The translations under genes were made by a program, and so were the position numbers. From a virus, in IMG/VR virus record IMGVR_UViG_3300003320_000492: 64,000 bases of DNA; one strand, 5' to 3'. The stretch's first letter is position 1; the number at the start of each line of letters is the position of its first letter. This document shows, piece by piece, positions 9,715 to 50,499 of the stretch. A model generated the notes under the pieces. That model saw nothing but the letters and a program-made list of their open reading frames with translations, was not told the DNA's origin and did no database searches.

Positions 9715-10487
9715 TAGTACCTCTCACCATTTACCATAAAGTGTCCATCAGGATTAATGGGCACTAATTCAGGAAACACTTCATTTTCATTTAGCCATAA
9801 AATACCGAATGCAGTTCCCCAGTTATTAAGTCTCGCGCGGCCGAGATATTCGGCGGCTGGAATATCCATCATGTGCCCAACTTCTAAGCCTGCAAACGAT
9901 TCTCTCTTATCAGATAGGCCCTTTGAAGACCAGATAAGGGCTGCTCTATGTGTATGTCCACAGACGACACTTTGATGGATTTCGTTTGCAAGGTTAAGCG
10001 CTGTTGCTCCTGGGACTTGAGATACTCTACCCTCATCGCCATGCGCCATAATCCAATTAGGAGCAATCTCAATAGGAGATTCATGCCATTCGATTCCGAA
10101 GTGATCAAGTCTAAGAGCATTTTGGATATTGAATTTATAACCTTGGATAGTAAGTCCAGCGATTCCAGGTAGCCGCCTTTCGATCGCCAATTCCAATCGC
10201 TCATCGTGATTGGATCTAACGAGATCCCACGGCCCGTCGTATTTATTGCGGTAATATTCGAGGAGTTCTCTCGTTTTTTCGAAACCACCTTCTAAACCTC
10301 CATCGAATTCTTGTCTCAGACCTTGTGCCCATCGGCCGATCTGAGTTGAGTCTGTCATATCTCCCACATGTCCTAATCGGACAGGCTGGAAATCCCCAAT
10401 GAAATCTCCCACACGTTTGATAATATTCTCTGAGTGTAAAGGAACCTGCCAATCAGGAAGAATAACTACCGCATTAGTTTTAGACAT
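9714..10487 (-). CDS. calcineurin-like metallophosphoesterase
   Basis: Motifs HVGDMTD, SNHDER, AHGD and CGHTH appear in the canonical order. Confidence 0.8.
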   Translation of the reverse strand: MSKTNAVVILPDWQVPLHSENIIKRVGDFIGDFQPVRLGHVGDMTDSTQIGRWAQGLRQEFDGGLEGGFEKTRELLEYYRNKYDGPWDLVRSNHDERLELAIERRLPGIAGLTIQGYKFNIQNALRLDHFGIEWHESPIEIAPNWIMAHGDEGRVSQVPGATALNLANEIHQSVVCGHTHRAALIWSSKGLSDKRESFAGLEVGHMMDIPAAEYLGRARLNNWGTAFGILWLNENEVFPELVPINPDGHFMVNGERY

Positions 10488-11007
10488 GTGCCCAATTCTT
10501 TCCGGAAAGAAGTCCTGTAATAGAGGCTTTAGTGACTCCGTATCTCATTGCTAATTGTTTATGAGTGCCATAGCCCATTGCATACTCTTCCCTAATAGCT
10601 TTTACTTTAATTTCATCTAGCTTCGCGCTGTGATGATTTACACCTCTAATTTGTGTTCCATGATTCACTCTATCACGTGAATTTTGTTTGGGTGTAGCCC
10701 AATAGATGTTTGTAACTATGTTATTTAAACTATTCCCATCAATATGTGCAGCTTGATGAACACTACTTGGAGGTGTGTCTAGAAAAGCTTTAGCCAATAG
10801 TCTATGGACAGTTTTAGTCAAGCTTTTACCGTTAACTGATAGATGGACAGTGAGATATCCGTATCTATCAATTGTTTGTTTCAACAGTTTGGGAGTTTCT
10901 GCAAGTGATTTTGCACCAACTCCACGTTTACGGTAAGACCGAACTTGTCCTAAGGAAGAAATCTCATATCCTACAAAACCACTAATGGGTCTCCATTCCT
11001 CATTCAT
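10480..11007 (-). CDS. HNH homing endonuclease (NUMOD4 + HNH_3-like)
   Basis: EEWRPISGFVGYEISSLGQVRS (NUMOD4-like), then HRLLAKAF...AAHIDGNSLNN...YWATPKQN. Start set to MNEEW. Confidence 0.75.
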   Translation of the reverse strand: MNEEWRPISGFVGYEISSLGQVRSYRKRGVGAKSLAETPKLLKQTIDRYGYLTVHLSVNGKSLTKTVHRLLAKAFLDTPPSSVHQAAHIDGNSLNNIVTNIYWATPKQNSRDRVNHGTQIRGVNHHSAKLDEIKVKAIREEYAMGYGTHKQLAMRYGVTKASITGLLSGKNWAHV

Positions 11008-11293
11008 TGAACTCCCTATATTTCTTGCGACCGTGAACATGTTGAATGTAAAGATGTCCTTTGTCTGGCGGACCTTGGTCTCTGAACCATGCTGTAGCCC
11101 ATAATTGGGTCGGTCCTTTCCAAACATTAATCACGATCTCTCGATATTTGTTTAGGATTGAAGCATCTGAATATGGTACAGCTTTAGTGTCGAGGCGGAG
11201 AATGAGACCATACACATGAGCTTCAATTACGGGTTCTTCGCAATAGGAGACAGGGCACCGCGAAAGCCATGCCCTGCCTTCCGTAAATCTCAT
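11000..11293 (-). CDS. hypothetical protein
   Basis: 97-aa ORF in operon context. Confidence 0.5.
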   Translation of the reverse strand: MRFTEGRAWLSRCPVSYCEEPVIEAHVYGLILRLDTKAVPYSDASILNKYREIVINVWKGPTQLWATAWFRDQGPPDKGHLYIQHVHGRKKYREFNE

Positions 11294-39073: not shown

Positions 39074-39502
39074 TTAGAGGTATCGAGACCATTGCTCGAT
39101 AGTTTCTTTTATTTCTTTGAGAATGCTGTTGGGTGCCTCAATAGAGGGCTGTACTTGCAAATTCAAAACCGCACGAATCTTATCAATGTTATTGACGTGA
39201 TATTGTGTGCGACTAAGAAAGTCGGATACATGGCGCATTGCTAGTTTTAATCTGCCTTGAGCCACAATGACATCGGCACTCAATGTACCAACCAAAATCA
39301 ATTCAAGCTGATCATTCAGTGCTGCCATAGTATCTAATTGTTCATTCGCATATACACGAGCAGCTTGTAATTGTTCACTTGCGTACTTCAATCCGGTAAT
39401 CGTGTCCTGCAAATTTGCTAAGGCATCCGCTCCATTAACAGATGCCCTTTGAATTAACAGGTTTACCTGATTGACTTGTGCTCGTACGTCATCGGAATCC
39501 AT
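39074..39502 (-). CDS. helical protein, family member H4 (double length)
   Basis: Start set to MDSDDVRAQVN (overlaps the upstream stop, ATGGATTCCGATGA). C-terminal ...IEQWSRYL. Confidence 0.6.
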   Translation of the reverse strand: MDSDDVRAQVNQVNLLIQRASVNGADALANLQDTITGLKYASEQLQAARVYANEQLDTMAALNDQLELILVGTLSADVIVAQGRLKLAMRHVSDFLSRTQYHVNNIDKIRAVLNLQVQPSIEAPNSILKEIKETIEQWSRYL

Positions 39503-40127
39503 TTGAGTCCTCGTGTCGTCTTCTGGATTCCTTTTGCTGCACAATTCTTTCGAATTCAGTAGTACGTCTACGCAACTCAGCTTCAGATGTAGGTGGAACT
39601 GGCCAGTATTGCGCATGCGGATGATTGGTTAGGTATTCGCGCATGCTTATGTTCAAAACTCCTGCTCTTACACTCAGAAGTCTGAATCTCGGCACATAGT
39701 CTCTTTCATATGTCGCTGGAGAAATCGAATGACCAACTTTCTTAATGACCTGCTGCCATTCATTGAACATCTTTCGAATGTAATTTGGATCATATTTGGG
39801 GTCATAAGATTTTGGTGTGGGTGGAGTAGTTGGTCTCTCTGGCTCCCTTTTATGCTTTGGGTACGTCTTGATCATTTCCTGAATACCCAATACTGCGGTT
39901 TGAGGATCATGACCTACAAAAACCGTTTGATGATACCCACCAATAGAATAAATTATTTCCCAACCTCTGGTGAATTTCTCTGAAAACTTATCAGGATACA
40001 ACAGTGCCCATCCTGCGGTTTTCTCGCCAGTCTGACCAGCAACATTTCTGAATTCTCGGAATGCATCAAATACTCTAATCCATCCCTTAGGGTTTTTACT
40101 TGGGGTTCGGGGATTTAACTCTTTCAA
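39489..40127 (-). CDS. hypothetical protein
   Basis: 212-aa ORF. Confidence 0.6.
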   Translation of the reverse strand: MKELNPRTPSKNPKGWIRVFDAFREFRNVAGQTGEKTAGWALLYPDKFSEKFTRGWEIIYSIGGYHQTVFVGHDPQTAVLGIQEMIKTYPKHKREPERPTTPPTPKSYDPKYDPNYIRKMFNEWQQVIKKVGHSISPATYERDYVPRFRLLSVRAGVLNISMREYLTNHPHAQYWPVPPTSEAELRRRTTEFERIVQQKESRRRHEDSNGFR

Positions 40128-49780: not shown

Positions 49781-50128
49781 TAGCACCGTAGGGATTCGAA
49801 CCCTGTATCTCCGTCCGTCGCGGTAGTAGCCGAGACAAGTCAATCGGCATCACGCGCCCTGATCGATCGGCGGAAGTGATCTGTAGTCAAGAGTTACCAG
49901 CGGACACGGTGAGCTTGCTAAGCTGGCCGATTTTCTCATACGCGGGAAAGACCGTCGGTGATCATGCGCTGGTTCCACTCGGATTTTACCCGCGTGCTCT
50001 CATACGCCTCTGCCGAACCCCATACACCCGTGTGGGTTTAAGGTATCGTCTGACTCTGGTACGTGTCATGGAAGTGCTCTTGAGTTATTCGCACCGTACC
50101 CGCTGTGCGGGCGGCCCGTGTGGGCGCT
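49781..50128 (-). ncRNA. GC-rich structured element ending in a tRNA-like T-arm and acceptor (about 350 nt)
   Basis: 3' end CAGGG-TTCGAAT-CCCTA-CGGTGCT-A. The best 5' partner, AGCGCC(C), is at 50122-50128. No convincing ORF. Many local GC hairpins. Confidence 0.3.
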
Positions 50129-50177
50129 GCGGTGTTACGAGAAAAACATTACGCGGACCCCTGGCAAACACCTATGA

Positions 50178-50499
50178 CCCAGGTCACAACTACCCTTTTT
50201 GATCTACGTTTTCCCAGGTAGATTGGCCTGAGTGAGCCCGGTCACACTAGTCTTGGAGCAAGGGGTTTGGTGCCCGATTTACCCCATTCCACAGTAGACT
50301 AGCCACAAGATCATGTGTCCAGATTGTCTTAAAAAGTCTAGTAAAAAAGTGGTCCCGGTCACAGACAACTAGGCATTAGTTAAGGTGTAACTTGTCCTAA
50401 AAAGTCTGGTAATTTTAGTGACTCCGGTCACAGACAACTAGTCTTGTGTTCAGTGGTATTTGTCCTAGTTTGACCAGGCAAAATGTAACCCAGGTCACA
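50178..50499 (+). repeat. iteron-like CC(C/A)GGTCACA repeats (5 direct copies)
   Basis: Copies at 50178, 50237, 50354, 50423 and 50489. Inverted variants at 50471 and 50637. The same CCCAGGTCAC forms the stem of the 3697 terminator. Confidence 0.7.
50324..50441 (+). repeat. two tandem-ish ~49-bp direct repeats
   Basis: TTGTC(T/C)TAAAAAGTCT(A/G)GTAA...(T/C)CCGGTCACAGACAACTAG at 50324-50372 and 50392-50441. Confidence 0.75.

What the first reader, a model, noticed from the sequence alone, without database searches (positions are those of the whole stretch)
49781..50128. GC-rich 350-nt non-coding island ending in a tRNA-like 3' module
This segment is visibly GC-richer than the rest of the window. 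It is packed with short GC hairpins (for example CCCGC-ACA-GCGGG, ACGCGGG...CCCGCGT and a duplicated CTCATACGC). It has no credible ORF; the listed plus-strand ORF 49876..50202 is Arg/Cys/Gly-rich with no RBS.

On the minus strand it ends in CAGGG-TTCGAAT-CCCTA-CGGTGCT-A. The best acceptor partner, AGCGCC(C), lies about 340 nt upstream at 50122-50128. That is the same '6 bp plus terminal mismatch' geometry as the neighbouring 49541-49694 element.

Size and end structure recall tmRNA, which some tRNA-rich phages encode. However, there is no G3-U70 pair and I could not find a plausible tag reading frame. It may be a different large structured RNA, an intron-containing tRNA, or part of the replication origin or genome-end region.
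Basis: partly seen in the sequence, partly recalled or inferred. Interest (0 to 1): 0.6.

Follow-up and report, generated by a model that had tools for sequence, protein, structure and literature searches.

The report
New folded phage RNA with tRNA-like end
The GC-rich gap is a gene for a roughly 370-base non-coding RNA with three folded domains, the last shaped partly like a tRNA; it is kept at the same place in every relative of this uncultured soil phage that I could recover, matches no catalogued RNA family, and has no known function.

Summary
The observation largely holds. Window 49767-50134 is a GC-rich (57% against 44%), ORF-free island, and its minus strand carries a tRNA-type T hairpin.

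It is a large structured RNA, but not a tmRNA, an intron-containing tRNA or an origin. ARAGORN and Rfam 15 find nothing, even at E up to 10 and in seven divergent relatives.

Fourteen distinct homologues, from IMG/VR, JGI, ENA, NCBI and Logan assemblies, all lie at the same spot, divergent from the lysis genes.

A curated 63-pair structure is 89% paired. Of its pairs, 28 show compensatory changes, against 14 ± 2 in shuffles (0 of 500 reach the observed value). Slid controls give 35-44% paired. G·U pairs favour the minus strand.

The T hairpin instead sits inside a roughly 115-nt tRNA-like 3' domain, closed by a helix whose sequence differs in all 14 homologues.

Function is unknown. My best reading is a stand-alone phage RNA of the "large ornate RNA in a tRNA island" kind (GOLLD and ROOL are the known examples) that uses tRNA-elbow mimicry to dock on a tRNA-binding partner.

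This scan has noted comparable RNAs in other phages, but not this family.

The parts
49767..50139 (-). Whole non-coding RNA, about 370 nt. The structured core runs from 50134 to 49767; the 5' end is inferred to lie a few bases upstream.
   Evidence: An nhmmer profile finds one copy in the window and one in each of 14 distinct relatives at the same locus. Covariation supports the fold. No ORF is conserved.
50146..50151 (-). Conserved -10-like hexamer just upstream of the RNA: the inferred promoter.
   Evidence: In alignment A4 the second position (A) and the sixth (T) are at least 90% conserved and the fifth (G) is invariant. The sigma-70 consensus scan itself found nothing, so this is an inference.
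50089..50134 (-). Domain 1: a 5' stem-loop. The basal helix pairs 50130-50134 with 50092-50096. It has conserved internal-loop sequences and a tip that varies in length.
   Evidence: Helix 1 is 93% paired in 14 sequences but shows no compensatory change. The variable tip is visible.
50077..50083 (-). 5' strand of the long-range helix P2, which encloses domain 2. Its partner is 49887-49893.
   Evidence: 90% paired. By my reading of the printed L020 segments, both strands are replaced there and remain complementary. The column count shows this only partly, because L020 is misaligned at this point.
49887..49893 (-). 3' strand of P2. It is followed by a conserved single-stranded junction (49882-49886) that leads into domain 3.
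49898..50076 (-). Domain 2, the most conserved part. It contains helices P3 (50063-50067 with 49903-49907), P4 (50048-50051 with 49949-49952), P5 (50040-50044 with 50017-50021) and the long hairpin P6 (49999-50007 with 49966-49973).
   Evidence: Pairs with compensatory changes: P3, 4 of 5; P4, 4 of 4; the P6 lower stem, 7 of 8. Covariance model R1, built from this core, recovers all family members searched at E of 6e-15 or better.
49980..49992 (-). Nearly invariant cap of hairpin P6. Its five-base loop fits the general T-loop motif pattern.
   Evidence: The stem is invariant or nearly so in 13 of 14 sequences, and the second loop position varies A, G or U. The T-loop reading is my inference from the sequence pattern.
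49767..49882 (-). Domain 3, the tRNA-like 3' domain. Its parts are: an outer closing helix (49872-49881 with 49768-49777); an inner 4-bp helix (49868-49871 with 49785-49788) that abuts the T stem; a long arm made of helices A (49861-49866 with 49811-49815), B (49853-49856 with 49819-49822) and C (49844-49848 with 49829-49833); a five-base linker; and the T hairpin.
   Evidence: The outer helix has 14 different 5' strands. In 12 of 14 sequences, at most 6 of 200 shuffled tails pair as well as the real one. Compensatory changes: inner helix, 3 of 3 pairs; helix B, 4 of 4. The tip of the long arm comes in three unrelated versions.
49789..49805 (-). T-arm-like hairpin: stem 49801-49804 with 49790-49793, seven-base loop 49794-49800.
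   Evidence: The three G-C pairs are invariant and the outer pair covaries. The arm, together with the five bases before it, most resembles the odd tRNA at 43651-43723 of the same phage.
49751..49759 (-). Conserved nine-base motif just downstream of the RNA. Its role is unknown.
   Evidence: It is visible in most rows of A4. It was not analysed further.
49541..49694 (-). Neighbouring tRNA-like element with an insert of about 80 nt. This is a separate RNA that usually accompanies the one described here.
   Evidence: A single-sequence nhmmer search finds it downstream of the RNA in 11 of the 14 homologues, the window's own phage included. Its fold has z = -2.2.

Best explanation
Window 49767 to about 50139, minus strand, is a stand-alone gene for a non-coding RNA of about 370 nt. 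It belongs to a family I could not find described.

Shown:
- The RNA is conserved in position and fold in all 14 distinct relatives of this uncultured soil phage that I recovered.
- It folds into three domains: a 5' stem-loop; a large, highly conserved multi-helix core enclosed by a long-range helix; and a 3' domain of about 115 nt.
- In the 3' domain an extended acceptor-like helix stacks directly on a tRNA-type T arm, a five-base linker takes the place of the variable loop, and one long arm replaces the D and anticodon arms.

Inferred:
- It is transcribed leftwards from its own conserved -10-like element at the divergent control region. That places it at the head of the block that carries the neighbouring tRNA-like RNA and the 32 tRNA genes.
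- It acts as a stable RNA in trans, not as a message or a decoder. The tip of the long arm is not conserved (three unrelated versions), no CCA is encoded, and the acceptor-like helix is closed. What is conserved is the elbow side of a tRNA together with the core of domain 2.

The mechanism I commit to is tRNA-elbow mimicry. The RNA would dock on something that normally recognises tRNA by its T arm and acceptor stack, such as a host tRNA-processing or modifying enzyme, the ribosome, or a tRNA-directed defence nuclease. Domain 2 would supply the specific activity or assembly surface. This is the same niche as the large ornate phage RNAs GOLLD and ROOL, which lie in phage tRNA islands.

My confidence differs by step. 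That it is a real structured RNA family: about 0.9. That the 3' domain is a tRNA mimic in the sense above: about 0.6. The docking or decoy function: about 0.35.
For: - Conservation and synteny. Fourteen distinct homologues were found, one per locus, each divergent from the GH25 lysin cassette. All relatives with enough upstream DNA have it.
- Fold. 63 curated pairs are 89.0% paired, against 80.6 ± 0.7 in shuffles. 28 pairs show compensatory change, against 14.1 ± 2.3 (0 of 500 shuffles reach the observed value). Slid controls give 35-44% paired.
- Unbiased check. A scan of all column pairs ranks the same helices first.
- Strand. There are 92 G·U cells against 26 A·C cells: 89.0% paired on the minus sense against 81.1% on the plus sense.
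- Non-coding. No frame is conserved, and most gap runs are not multiples of three.
- tRNA-like 3' domain. The outer closing helix has 14 different sequences yet pairs far better than shuffled tails. The inner helix and helix B covary fully. The T loop is nearly invariant. The only Rfam echo is a sub-threshold match to the tRNA-like mascRNA family. The linker plus T arm most resemble one of the phage's own tRNA-like genes.
- Own promoter. A conserved -10-like hexamer lies immediately upstream.
- Kind. GOLLD and ROOL are large structured RNAs of phages and prophages, often near tRNA islands. GOLLD sometimes carries a covalently linked tRNA. Their functions are unknown (PMC12286853, read).
Against: - No transcript evidence exists. 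The promoter scan and the terminator scan were both negative, so the ends of the RNA are inferred.
- The window sequence alone is not more stable than shuffles.
- Several helices (H1, P2 apart from L020, P5 and the P6 cap) never vary, so they are neither supported nor contradicted by covariation.
- The 14 homologues are one phage lineage, so shared ancestry inflates the counts. The tool's own caveat on shuffle control (a) applies.
- The acceptor-like stem is interrupted by a 3'-side bulge of 3-17 nt and there is no D arm, so the tRNA likeness is partial.
- Nothing tested here bears on the partner or the function. The match to GOLLD and ROOL is one of context only; neither Rfam model matches.
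Confidence: 0.6

Rival explanations
1. It is the 5' leader or processing module of one long leftward transcript. In this reading the tRNA-like 3' domain is a punctuation signal, cut by host RNase P or RNase Z as in MALAT1-mascRNA or mitochondrial transcripts. The cut would free the downstream tRNA-like RNA and the tRNAs, and the upstream domains would only stabilise or time the transcript.
For: - The RNA lies first in the leftward block, directly upstream of another tRNA-like element in 11 of the 14 homologues and of the 32 tRNA genes.
- No terminator follows it.
- The weak Rfam echo is to mascRNA, a processing-generated tRNA-like RNA.
Against: - The acceptor-like helix continues for 7-12 further pairs instead of ending in a single-stranded leader and a 3' tail, so it is not a canonical RNase P or RNase Z substrate.
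- Domain 2 is the most conserved part, with nearly invariant loops. That is more than a passive leader needs.
Confidence: 0.15
2. It is a ribozyme, or an RNA-only assembly, whose catalytic or architectural core is domain 2. Examples would be an unrecognised self-cleaving or tRNA-processing ribozyme, or a multimeric cage like those formed by GOLLD and ROOL.
For: - Its size, multi-domain fold and invariant junction and loop nucleotides are typical of ribozymes and ornate RNAs.
- GOLLD and ROOL, from the same genomic niche, form homo-oligomeric cages (PMC12286853).
Against: - No known ribozyme family matches, including RNase P, group I and II introns, hammerhead, twister and HDV-like.
- No pseudoknot is supported: the candidate loop-to-junction pairing is lost without compensation in the subtypes whose arm tip differs.
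- Nothing tested here bears on oligomerisation.
Confidence: 0.12
3. It is a DNA-level element, such as a replication origin or a packaging or terminal region. The apparent helices would be DNA hairpins or protein-binding repeats.
For: - It lies beside the divergent control region, where cumulative GC skew reaches its minimum.
Against: - The compensatory changes keep a nested, multi-domain fold of about 370 nt.
- The excess of G·U over A·C pairs is strand-specific.
- A tRNA-type T loop has no known DNA role.
- The repeats lie outside the element.
Confidence: 0.04
4. It is a divergent tmRNA, or a tRNA gene interrupted by a group I intron. These were the first reader's leading ideas.
For: - The size is right, at about 350-370 nt.
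- It has a T arm, and the phage carries a full set of tRNAs.
- The genome also carries homing-endonuclease genes.
Against: - ARAGORN and all Rfam tmRNA and group I models are silent for the window and for seven relatives.
- The two ends do not pair with each other.
- There is no conserved G·U at the third acceptor pair, no encoded CCA, no conserved tag frame, and no D arm or anticodon stem.
- The T arm is enclosed by an internal helix.
Confidence: 0.02

Closest known systems
GOLLD (Rfam RF01998) and ROOL (RF03087), the large ornate RNAs of phages and prophages
   Same: - Large, elaborately folded non-coding RNAs encoded by phages, typically in or beside tRNA islands.
- GOLLD can carry a covalently linked tRNA.
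- No protein partner or function is known (PMC12286853; PMC5737381).
   Different: - There is no sequence or structure match to either Rfam model, even at E up to 10.
- This RNA is about half their size (370 nt against about 580 and 800 nt).
- Its tRNA-like part is an integral closed domain, not an inserted tRNA gene.
- Oligomerisation was not tested.
tmRNA, including phage-encoded tmRNAs
   Same: - Similar length.
- A tRNA-like domain without a D stem, in which a long helix replaces the anticodon arm and a canonical T arm is kept.
   Different: - In tmRNA the two ends of the molecule form the acceptor stem, with a G·U at the third pair and a 3' CCA. The long helix then opens into pseudoknots and a tag reading frame.
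- Here the acceptor-like helix is internal and closed, the long arm ends in a loop, there is no tag frame, and no tmRNA model matches.
tRNA-like structures used as processing or docking modules: mascRNA at the MALAT1 3' end, plant-virus 3' tRNA-like structures, and the tRNA-like domain of bacterial YrlA Y RNAs (PMC4201824)
   Same: A tRNA-type T arm and acceptor-like stack embedded in a longer non-tRNA transcript. The only Rfam echo here is a sub-threshold match to mascRNA (15.5 bits, E = 5).
   Different: - This is a DNA-phage RNA with a 250-nt structured 5' part.
- The strand order differs from YrlA, where the ends lie on the anticodon side.
- There is no 3'-terminal CCA as in the viral structures.
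- No Y RNA model matches. The phage's Ro-like gene lies 23 kb away.
Small stable RNAs of unknown function in phage tRNA clusters, such as the T4 species 1 and 2 RNAs (from my own knowledge), and the large T5 RNA noted by this scan (an unchecked AI note)
   Same: Non-tRNA stable RNAs with tRNA-like features, encoded among phage tRNA genes.
   Different: Different phages and sizes, and no detectable similarity. I did not verify those records here.

Membership tests
tmRNA | The 5' and 3' ends pair to form a terminal acceptor stem with a G·U at the third pair, followed by a discriminator base and CCA. | tested here: not met
   The proposed end-to-end pairing is specific to this window and does not covary. 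The bases 3' of the T arm pair with a strand only about 80 nt upstream, inside a closed helix. No CCA follows.
tmRNA | A conserved tag-peptide reading frame with a resume codon and a stop, flanked by pseudoknots. | tested here: not met
   Translations in all three frames show no plausible tag. No frame is conserved across the homologues. No pseudoknot is supported.
tmRNA | Recognition by ARAGORN or by the Rfam tmRNA models (standard, alpha, beta, cyano, mitochondrial). | tested here: not met
   No hit in the window or within the RNA in seven relatives at E up to 10. Two sub-threshold beta-tmRNA echoes lie downstream of it, in the neighbouring element.
tRNA gene with a group I intron | Flanking exons that form the D arm, anticodon stem, T arm and acceptor stem of one tRNA. 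| tested here: not met
   Only a T arm is present. The 5' region folds into its own conserved stem-loop. No tRNA model matches the window element; the one partial sub-threshold echo, in L020 (21.5 bits, E = 6.5), lies almost wholly downstream of the RNA.
tRNA gene with a group I intron | A group I catalytic core (P3-P8 with the P7 guanosine pocket) detectable by Rfam RF00028. | tested here: not met
   No match at E up to 10. A candidate P7-like pairing seen by eye in the window is not conserved in the relatives. RF00028 is known to miss some subgroups, so this is not absolute.
Bacterial RNase P RNA | The P4 pseudoknot formed by the universally conserved regions CR-I and CR-V; recognition by the Rfam RNase P models. 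| tested here: not met
   No Rfam RNase P hit. A short resemblance of the P6 cap to CR-I has no conserved partner strand in the right topology.
GOLLD / ROOL | A match to the family covariance model. | tested here: not met
   No match at E up to 10 in the window or in seven relatives.
GOLLD / ROOL | A large, ornate, non-coding RNA encoded by a phage in or next to a tRNA island. | tested here: met
   32 tRNA genes lie on the same strand and another tRNA-like RNA is adjacent. The multi-domain fold is supported by covariation. This is a shared niche, not evidence of homology.
GOLLD / ROOL | Homo-oligomeric cage assembly. | not testable with these tools
   Needs native gels, SEC-MALS or cryo-EM of the transcript.
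tRNA-like structure (general) | A T arm with the conserved T-loop positions, stacked directly on an acceptor-like helix. | tested here: met
   The T loop is nearly invariant. The T stem has four standard pairs plus one outer C·A, which is U-A in L004 and L019 (read by eye). The inner helix starts at the next base and covaries at 3 of 3 pairs.
tRNA-like structure (general) | A D loop or an equivalent that forms the elbow with the T loop; recognition by tRNA enzymes. | not testable with these tools
   No D arm is present. A partner for the T loop could lie elsewhere in the RNA. This needs probing, a structure, or enzyme assays.
Y RNA / YrlA | A terminal Ro-binding helix with the tRNA-like domain at the far end; a match to the Rfam Y RNA models. 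| tested here: not met
   No Rfam match. The strand order of the tRNA-like domain is that of a normal tRNA, not the permuted order of YrlA (PMC4201824).

The most novel reading that the evidence does not exclude
The RNA is a functional machine, not a passive mimic. Either it is a new ribozyme whose conserved domain 2 acts on tRNA or tRNA-like substrates held by its own tRNA-shaped domain, or it is a third, much smaller class of self-assembling RNA cage in phage tRNA islands alongside GOLLD and ROOL. In the cage case the covalently attached tRNA-like domain would be the displayed or enclosed part.
Probability: 0.12. Interest if true: 0.85.

Novelty: new variant of a known kind. Interest (0 to 1): 0.55.

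Why it matters
Large, intricately folded bacterial and phage RNAs are rare. Historically they have proved to be ribozymes, ribonucleoprotein scaffolds or, very recently, RNA-only cages.

This one is small enough (about 370 nt) for direct structural work. It has a clear three-domain fold backed by compensatory changes, and a built-in tRNA-like domain that points to a testable set of partners.

It adds an independent example to the unexplained rule that phages with many tRNA genes place large structured RNAs in their tRNA islands. Comparing it with GOLLD and ROOL could show what these RNAs have in common.

The limits are real. The host is unknown, no expression data exist, only one phage lineage carries it so far, and its function is not established.

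Tried and rejected
- **Known RNA families.** Rfam at gathering thresholds over the whole window gave only tRNAs. Rfam at E up to 10 on 49400-50400 gave no meaningful hit, and the same search on seven divergent homologue loci gave none in the RNA. ARAGORN found no tmRNA.
- **Cultured phages.** A sensitive blastn against 50,697 phage records found no match. The closest terminase is below 40% identity, so there is no cultured relative.
- **Cellular genomes.** An exact scan for the most conserved 23-base stretch in 185,579 species genomes found no hit.
- **Metagenome scan for the T-arm module.** It returned copies of one relative plus L008. L008 is a contig of a phage with a protein-primed polymerase and shares only about 30 nt. 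The domain 2 model does not match it, even with filters off, so it is not a family member.
- **Pattern from the neighbouring element.** It pulled three unrelated high-GC contigs. These were chance matches.
- **RNA-seq.** No RNA holder is listed for this DNA. I did not lay reads, because only assembled contigs of DNA runs were on offer.
- **Promoter and terminator scans.** Both were negative.
- **Thermodynamic stability of the window sequence alone.** Not significant.
- **Alternative eight-base helix next to P3.** It is perfect in one relative but only 61% paired overall. Rejected in favour of P3.
- **Pseudoknot between the ten-base loop of helix C and the junction before P2.** It is complementary in most sequences, but the loop is replaced without compensation in four relatives. 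Not supported.
Not supported.
- **Full-length covariance model.** Not attempted, because the tool's time limit rules out models of this length. Structure-aware MAFFT modes are not installed.
- **RNA-related proteins.** A Pfam scan of 30 window proteins found no SmpB, RNase P protein or RNA ligase near the RNA.

Full report
**What the window is.** It comes from an uncultured tailed phage. It encodes a large terminase, a portal, a family A DNA polymerase, a ribonucleotide reductase and a GH25 lysin, with 32 tRNA genes all on the minus strand. No whole genome is held. The phage has no close cultured relative: there is no DNA match among 50,697 phage records and the best terminase identity is below 40%. 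The runs that hold the DNA are root, rhizosphere and soil metagenomes. That is a habitat hint only.

**Checking the observation.** The segment is a GC island: 0.573 for 49767-50134 against 0.438 for the window and about 0.475 in each flank. On the minus strand it ends in a hairpin with a seven-base loop of the tRNA T-loop type. All three minus-strand frames are full of stops. The sequence alone does not fold more stably than shuffled versions (z = +0.37). ARAGORN and Rfam find nothing beyond sub-threshold echoes of the T hairpin, the best being 15.5 bits to the tRNA-like mascRNA family. At this stage the finding could have been chance.

**Relatives.** I used the neighbouring lysin as a handle.
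- Four relatives came from IMG/VR.
- After a protein search, ten more loci came from JGI, ENA, NCBI and Logan assemblies.
- A profile of the region finds exactly one copy in the window and one in every locus that has enough upstream DNA.
- That gives 14 distinct sequences, always on the strand opposite the lysin cassette and 1.1-1.7 kb from the lysin gene.
- Nucleotide identity to the window falls to about 68-73% for the two relatives measured by BLAST. Indels are many and mostly not multiples of three.
- Conservation is block-wise: invariant stretches alternate with variable ones. This is the pattern of a structured RNA, not of a gene or a spacer.

**The fold.** RNAalifold and an unbiased scan of all column pairs for compensatory changes point to the same helices. 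I assembled 63 pairs in 14 helices and had them counted on the MAFFT alignment, which was not fitted to any structure.
- 89.0% of cells are paired, against 80.6 ± 0.7 when partners are shuffled (0 of 500 shuffles reach the observed value).
- 28 pairs show changes on both sides, against 14.1 ± 2.3 (0 of 500).
- Sliding the partners by one to three columns drops pairing to 35-44%.
- The strongest helices are P3, P4, the lower stem of the long hairpin P6, the inner helix of the 3' domain and helix B.
- Several helices (H1, P5 and the P6 cap) never vary, so they remain untested. P2 barely varies in the column count.
- G·U pairs outnumber A·C by 92 to 26. The same columns pair at 89.0% on the minus sense but only 81.1% on the plus sense. 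The folded strand is therefore the one that carries the tRNA genes.
- All 14 sequences belong to one phage lineage, so shared descent inflates such counts. The slid controls and the number of distinct pair types argue that the signal is still real.

**Anatomy (minus strand, window coordinates).**
- *Domain 1 (50134-50089)* is a stem-loop with conserved internal-loop sequences and a tip that varies from about 10 to about 45 nt.
- *Helix P2* (50077-50083 with 49887-49893) is a seven-pair long-range helix that encloses domain 2. In relative L020 both strands appear replaced and still complementary in the printed segments.
- *Domain 2 (50076-49898)* is the most conserved part. Its features are:
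  - P3 and P4;
  - a small stem, P5, whose flanks recall a tetraloop-receptor motif (my reading, untested);
  - a long irregular hairpin, P6, whose nearly invariant cap has a five-base loop fitting the general T-loop pattern;
  - a further helix at the base of P6 that switches between two complementary versions in two groups of relatives.
- *A conserved single-stranded junction (49882-49886)* leads into domain 3.

The bases that follow the T hairpin do not pair with the 5' end of the RNA. That match exists only in this window: in the relatives the 5' bases are a conserved loop sequence and the 3' bases are a variable linker. The actual arrangement is as follows.
- A short helix (49868-49871 with 49785-49788) begins at the base next to the T stem. 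It covaries at all three counted pairs.
- After a 3'-side bulge of 3-17 nt it continues into an outer helix of 7-12 pairs (49872-49881 with 49768-49777).
- The 5' strand of that outer helix differs in all 14 homologues. In 12 of the 14, at most 6 of 200 shuffled tails pair with it as well as its own partner does.
- Between the 5' strand of this helix and the T arm lie one long arm (helices A, B and C) and a five-base linker, where a tRNA has its variable loop.
- There is no D arm, and no CCA is encoded. None of the 33 tRNA or tRNA-like genes examined in this phage encodes CCA either.
- The tip of the long arm exists in three unrelated versions, so it is not an anticodon-like functional loop.
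- What is conserved is the junction, the linker and the T arm, that is, the elbow side of a tRNA.
- The linker plus T arm most resemble an odd tRNA-like gene of the same phage at 43651-43723. This suggests descent from, or convergence on, the phage's own tRNAs.

**Ends of the RNA.** Immediately upstream lies a hexamer (50146-50151) whose second, fifth and sixth positions are conserved in the way of a -10 element. The generic sigma-70 scan finds no promoter and no terminator. I infer a start near 50139 and an end just after 49767, but transcription may continue into the neighbouring tRNA-like element. That element (49541-49694) follows the RNA in 11 of the 14 homologues.

**What it is not.**
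- *tmRNA:* no model match, no terminal acceptor stem, no G·U at the third pair, no tag frame, and a T arm enclosed in an internal helix.
- *Intron-containing tRNA:* no exons with D arm or anticodon stem, and no group I core.
- *RNase P RNA, GOLLD, ROOL, Y RNAs and the known small ribozymes:* no Rfam match in the window or within the RNA in seven divergent relatives, even at E up to 10.
- *A DNA-level origin:* unlikely, given the strand-specific wobble pairs and the nested multi-domain covariation.
- *L008:* this contig, from a phage with a protein-primed polymerase, shares the 30-nt linker plus T arm but has no domain 2, even with filters off. I treat it as a different tRNA-like element.
- *Cellular genomes:* the most conserved 23-base stretch is absent from 185,579 species genomes.

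**How it most likely works.** Shown: a conserved, strand-specific, three-domain fold with a partial tRNA mimic at its 3' end, placed at the head of the tRNA-rich leftward block. Everything else is inference.

The mimic keeps the T arm and the stacked helix but discards the decoding and charging ends. So the RNA most plausibly presents a tRNA elbow to something that recognises tRNAs by shape, such as a processing or modifying enzyme, the ribosome, or a tRNA-directed defence nuclease. Phage tRNAs are known to counter such defences (PMC11464382, abstract as listed). The conserved domain 2 would supply the specific function.

The closest described kind is the large ornate RNAs of phage tRNA islands. 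GOLLD and ROOL have unknown functions, GOLLD sometimes carries a covalently linked tRNA, and both form RNA-only cages (PMC12286853).

The rival readings are a processing leader, a ribozyme or cage, and a DNA element. They are listed with odds in the rivals section.

**Novelty and verdict.** The family is absent from Rfam 15, and I could not find it in the papers searched. Those searches were by topic, not by sequence. The kind, a large structured phage RNA beside tRNA genes with a tRNA-like piece, is known. This scan's earlier notes list several other unclassified examples in other phages (unchecked AI notes), but none on this sequence.

I therefore rate it a new variant of a known kind. The structure is solid, the function is open, and interest is moderate to good.

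Noticed in passing
window 49541-49694 (-): The neighbouring tRNA-like element has true end-to-end acceptor pairing, a T arm and an insert of about 80 nt in the anticodon arm. It is conserved downstream of the RNA in 11 of the 14 homologues, the window included, with covarying acceptor positions.
   Followed up: partly
window 43651-43723 (-): A tRNA-like gene found by Rfam (33.5 bits) but missed by ARAGORN. In the minimum-free-energy fold its anticodon stem closes a nine-base loop instead of seven. Its variable loop and T arm are the closest match in the phage to those of the RNA's 3' domain.
   Followed up: partly
window 22829-48607 (-): None of the 33 tRNA or tRNA-like genes encodes a 3' CCA, so all depend on a CCA-adding enzyme. 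No such enzyme turned up among the 30 window proteins scanned against Pfam.
   Followed up: no
The repeats may therefore be phage promoters rather than iterons.
   Followed up: partly
window 49751-49759 (-): A nine-base motif just downstream of the RNA is conserved in most relatives. It could be a processing site or part of the next promoter.
   Followed up: no
L008 10390-10480 (+): A 13-kb metagenomic contig that encodes a protein-primed type B DNA polymerase carries the same 30-nt linker-plus-T-arm module, inside what looks like a miniature D-armless tRNA-like element. It has no domain 2 homologue.
   Followed up: partly
L016 2491-3581, L021 2525-3069, L026 2839-3399: The space between the RNA and the lysis cassette is a hot spot for gene insertion in the relatives. 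L016 has two unknown ORFs there, L021 and L022 have an Rv1352-family ORF, and L026 has an HNH endonuclease. The RNA itself stays in place.
   Followed up: no
L011 380-790: This short metagenomic contig switches abruptly from high-GC, coding-like sequence to the 3' half of the RNA. It is probably an assembly chimera.
   Followed up: no
window 10480-11127, 20235-20774, 39489-40127 (-): HNH/NUMOD4, endonuclease VII and homing-endonuclease-repeat proteins are scattered through the leftward block, so mobile endonuclease genes are active in this phage lineage.
   Followed up: no
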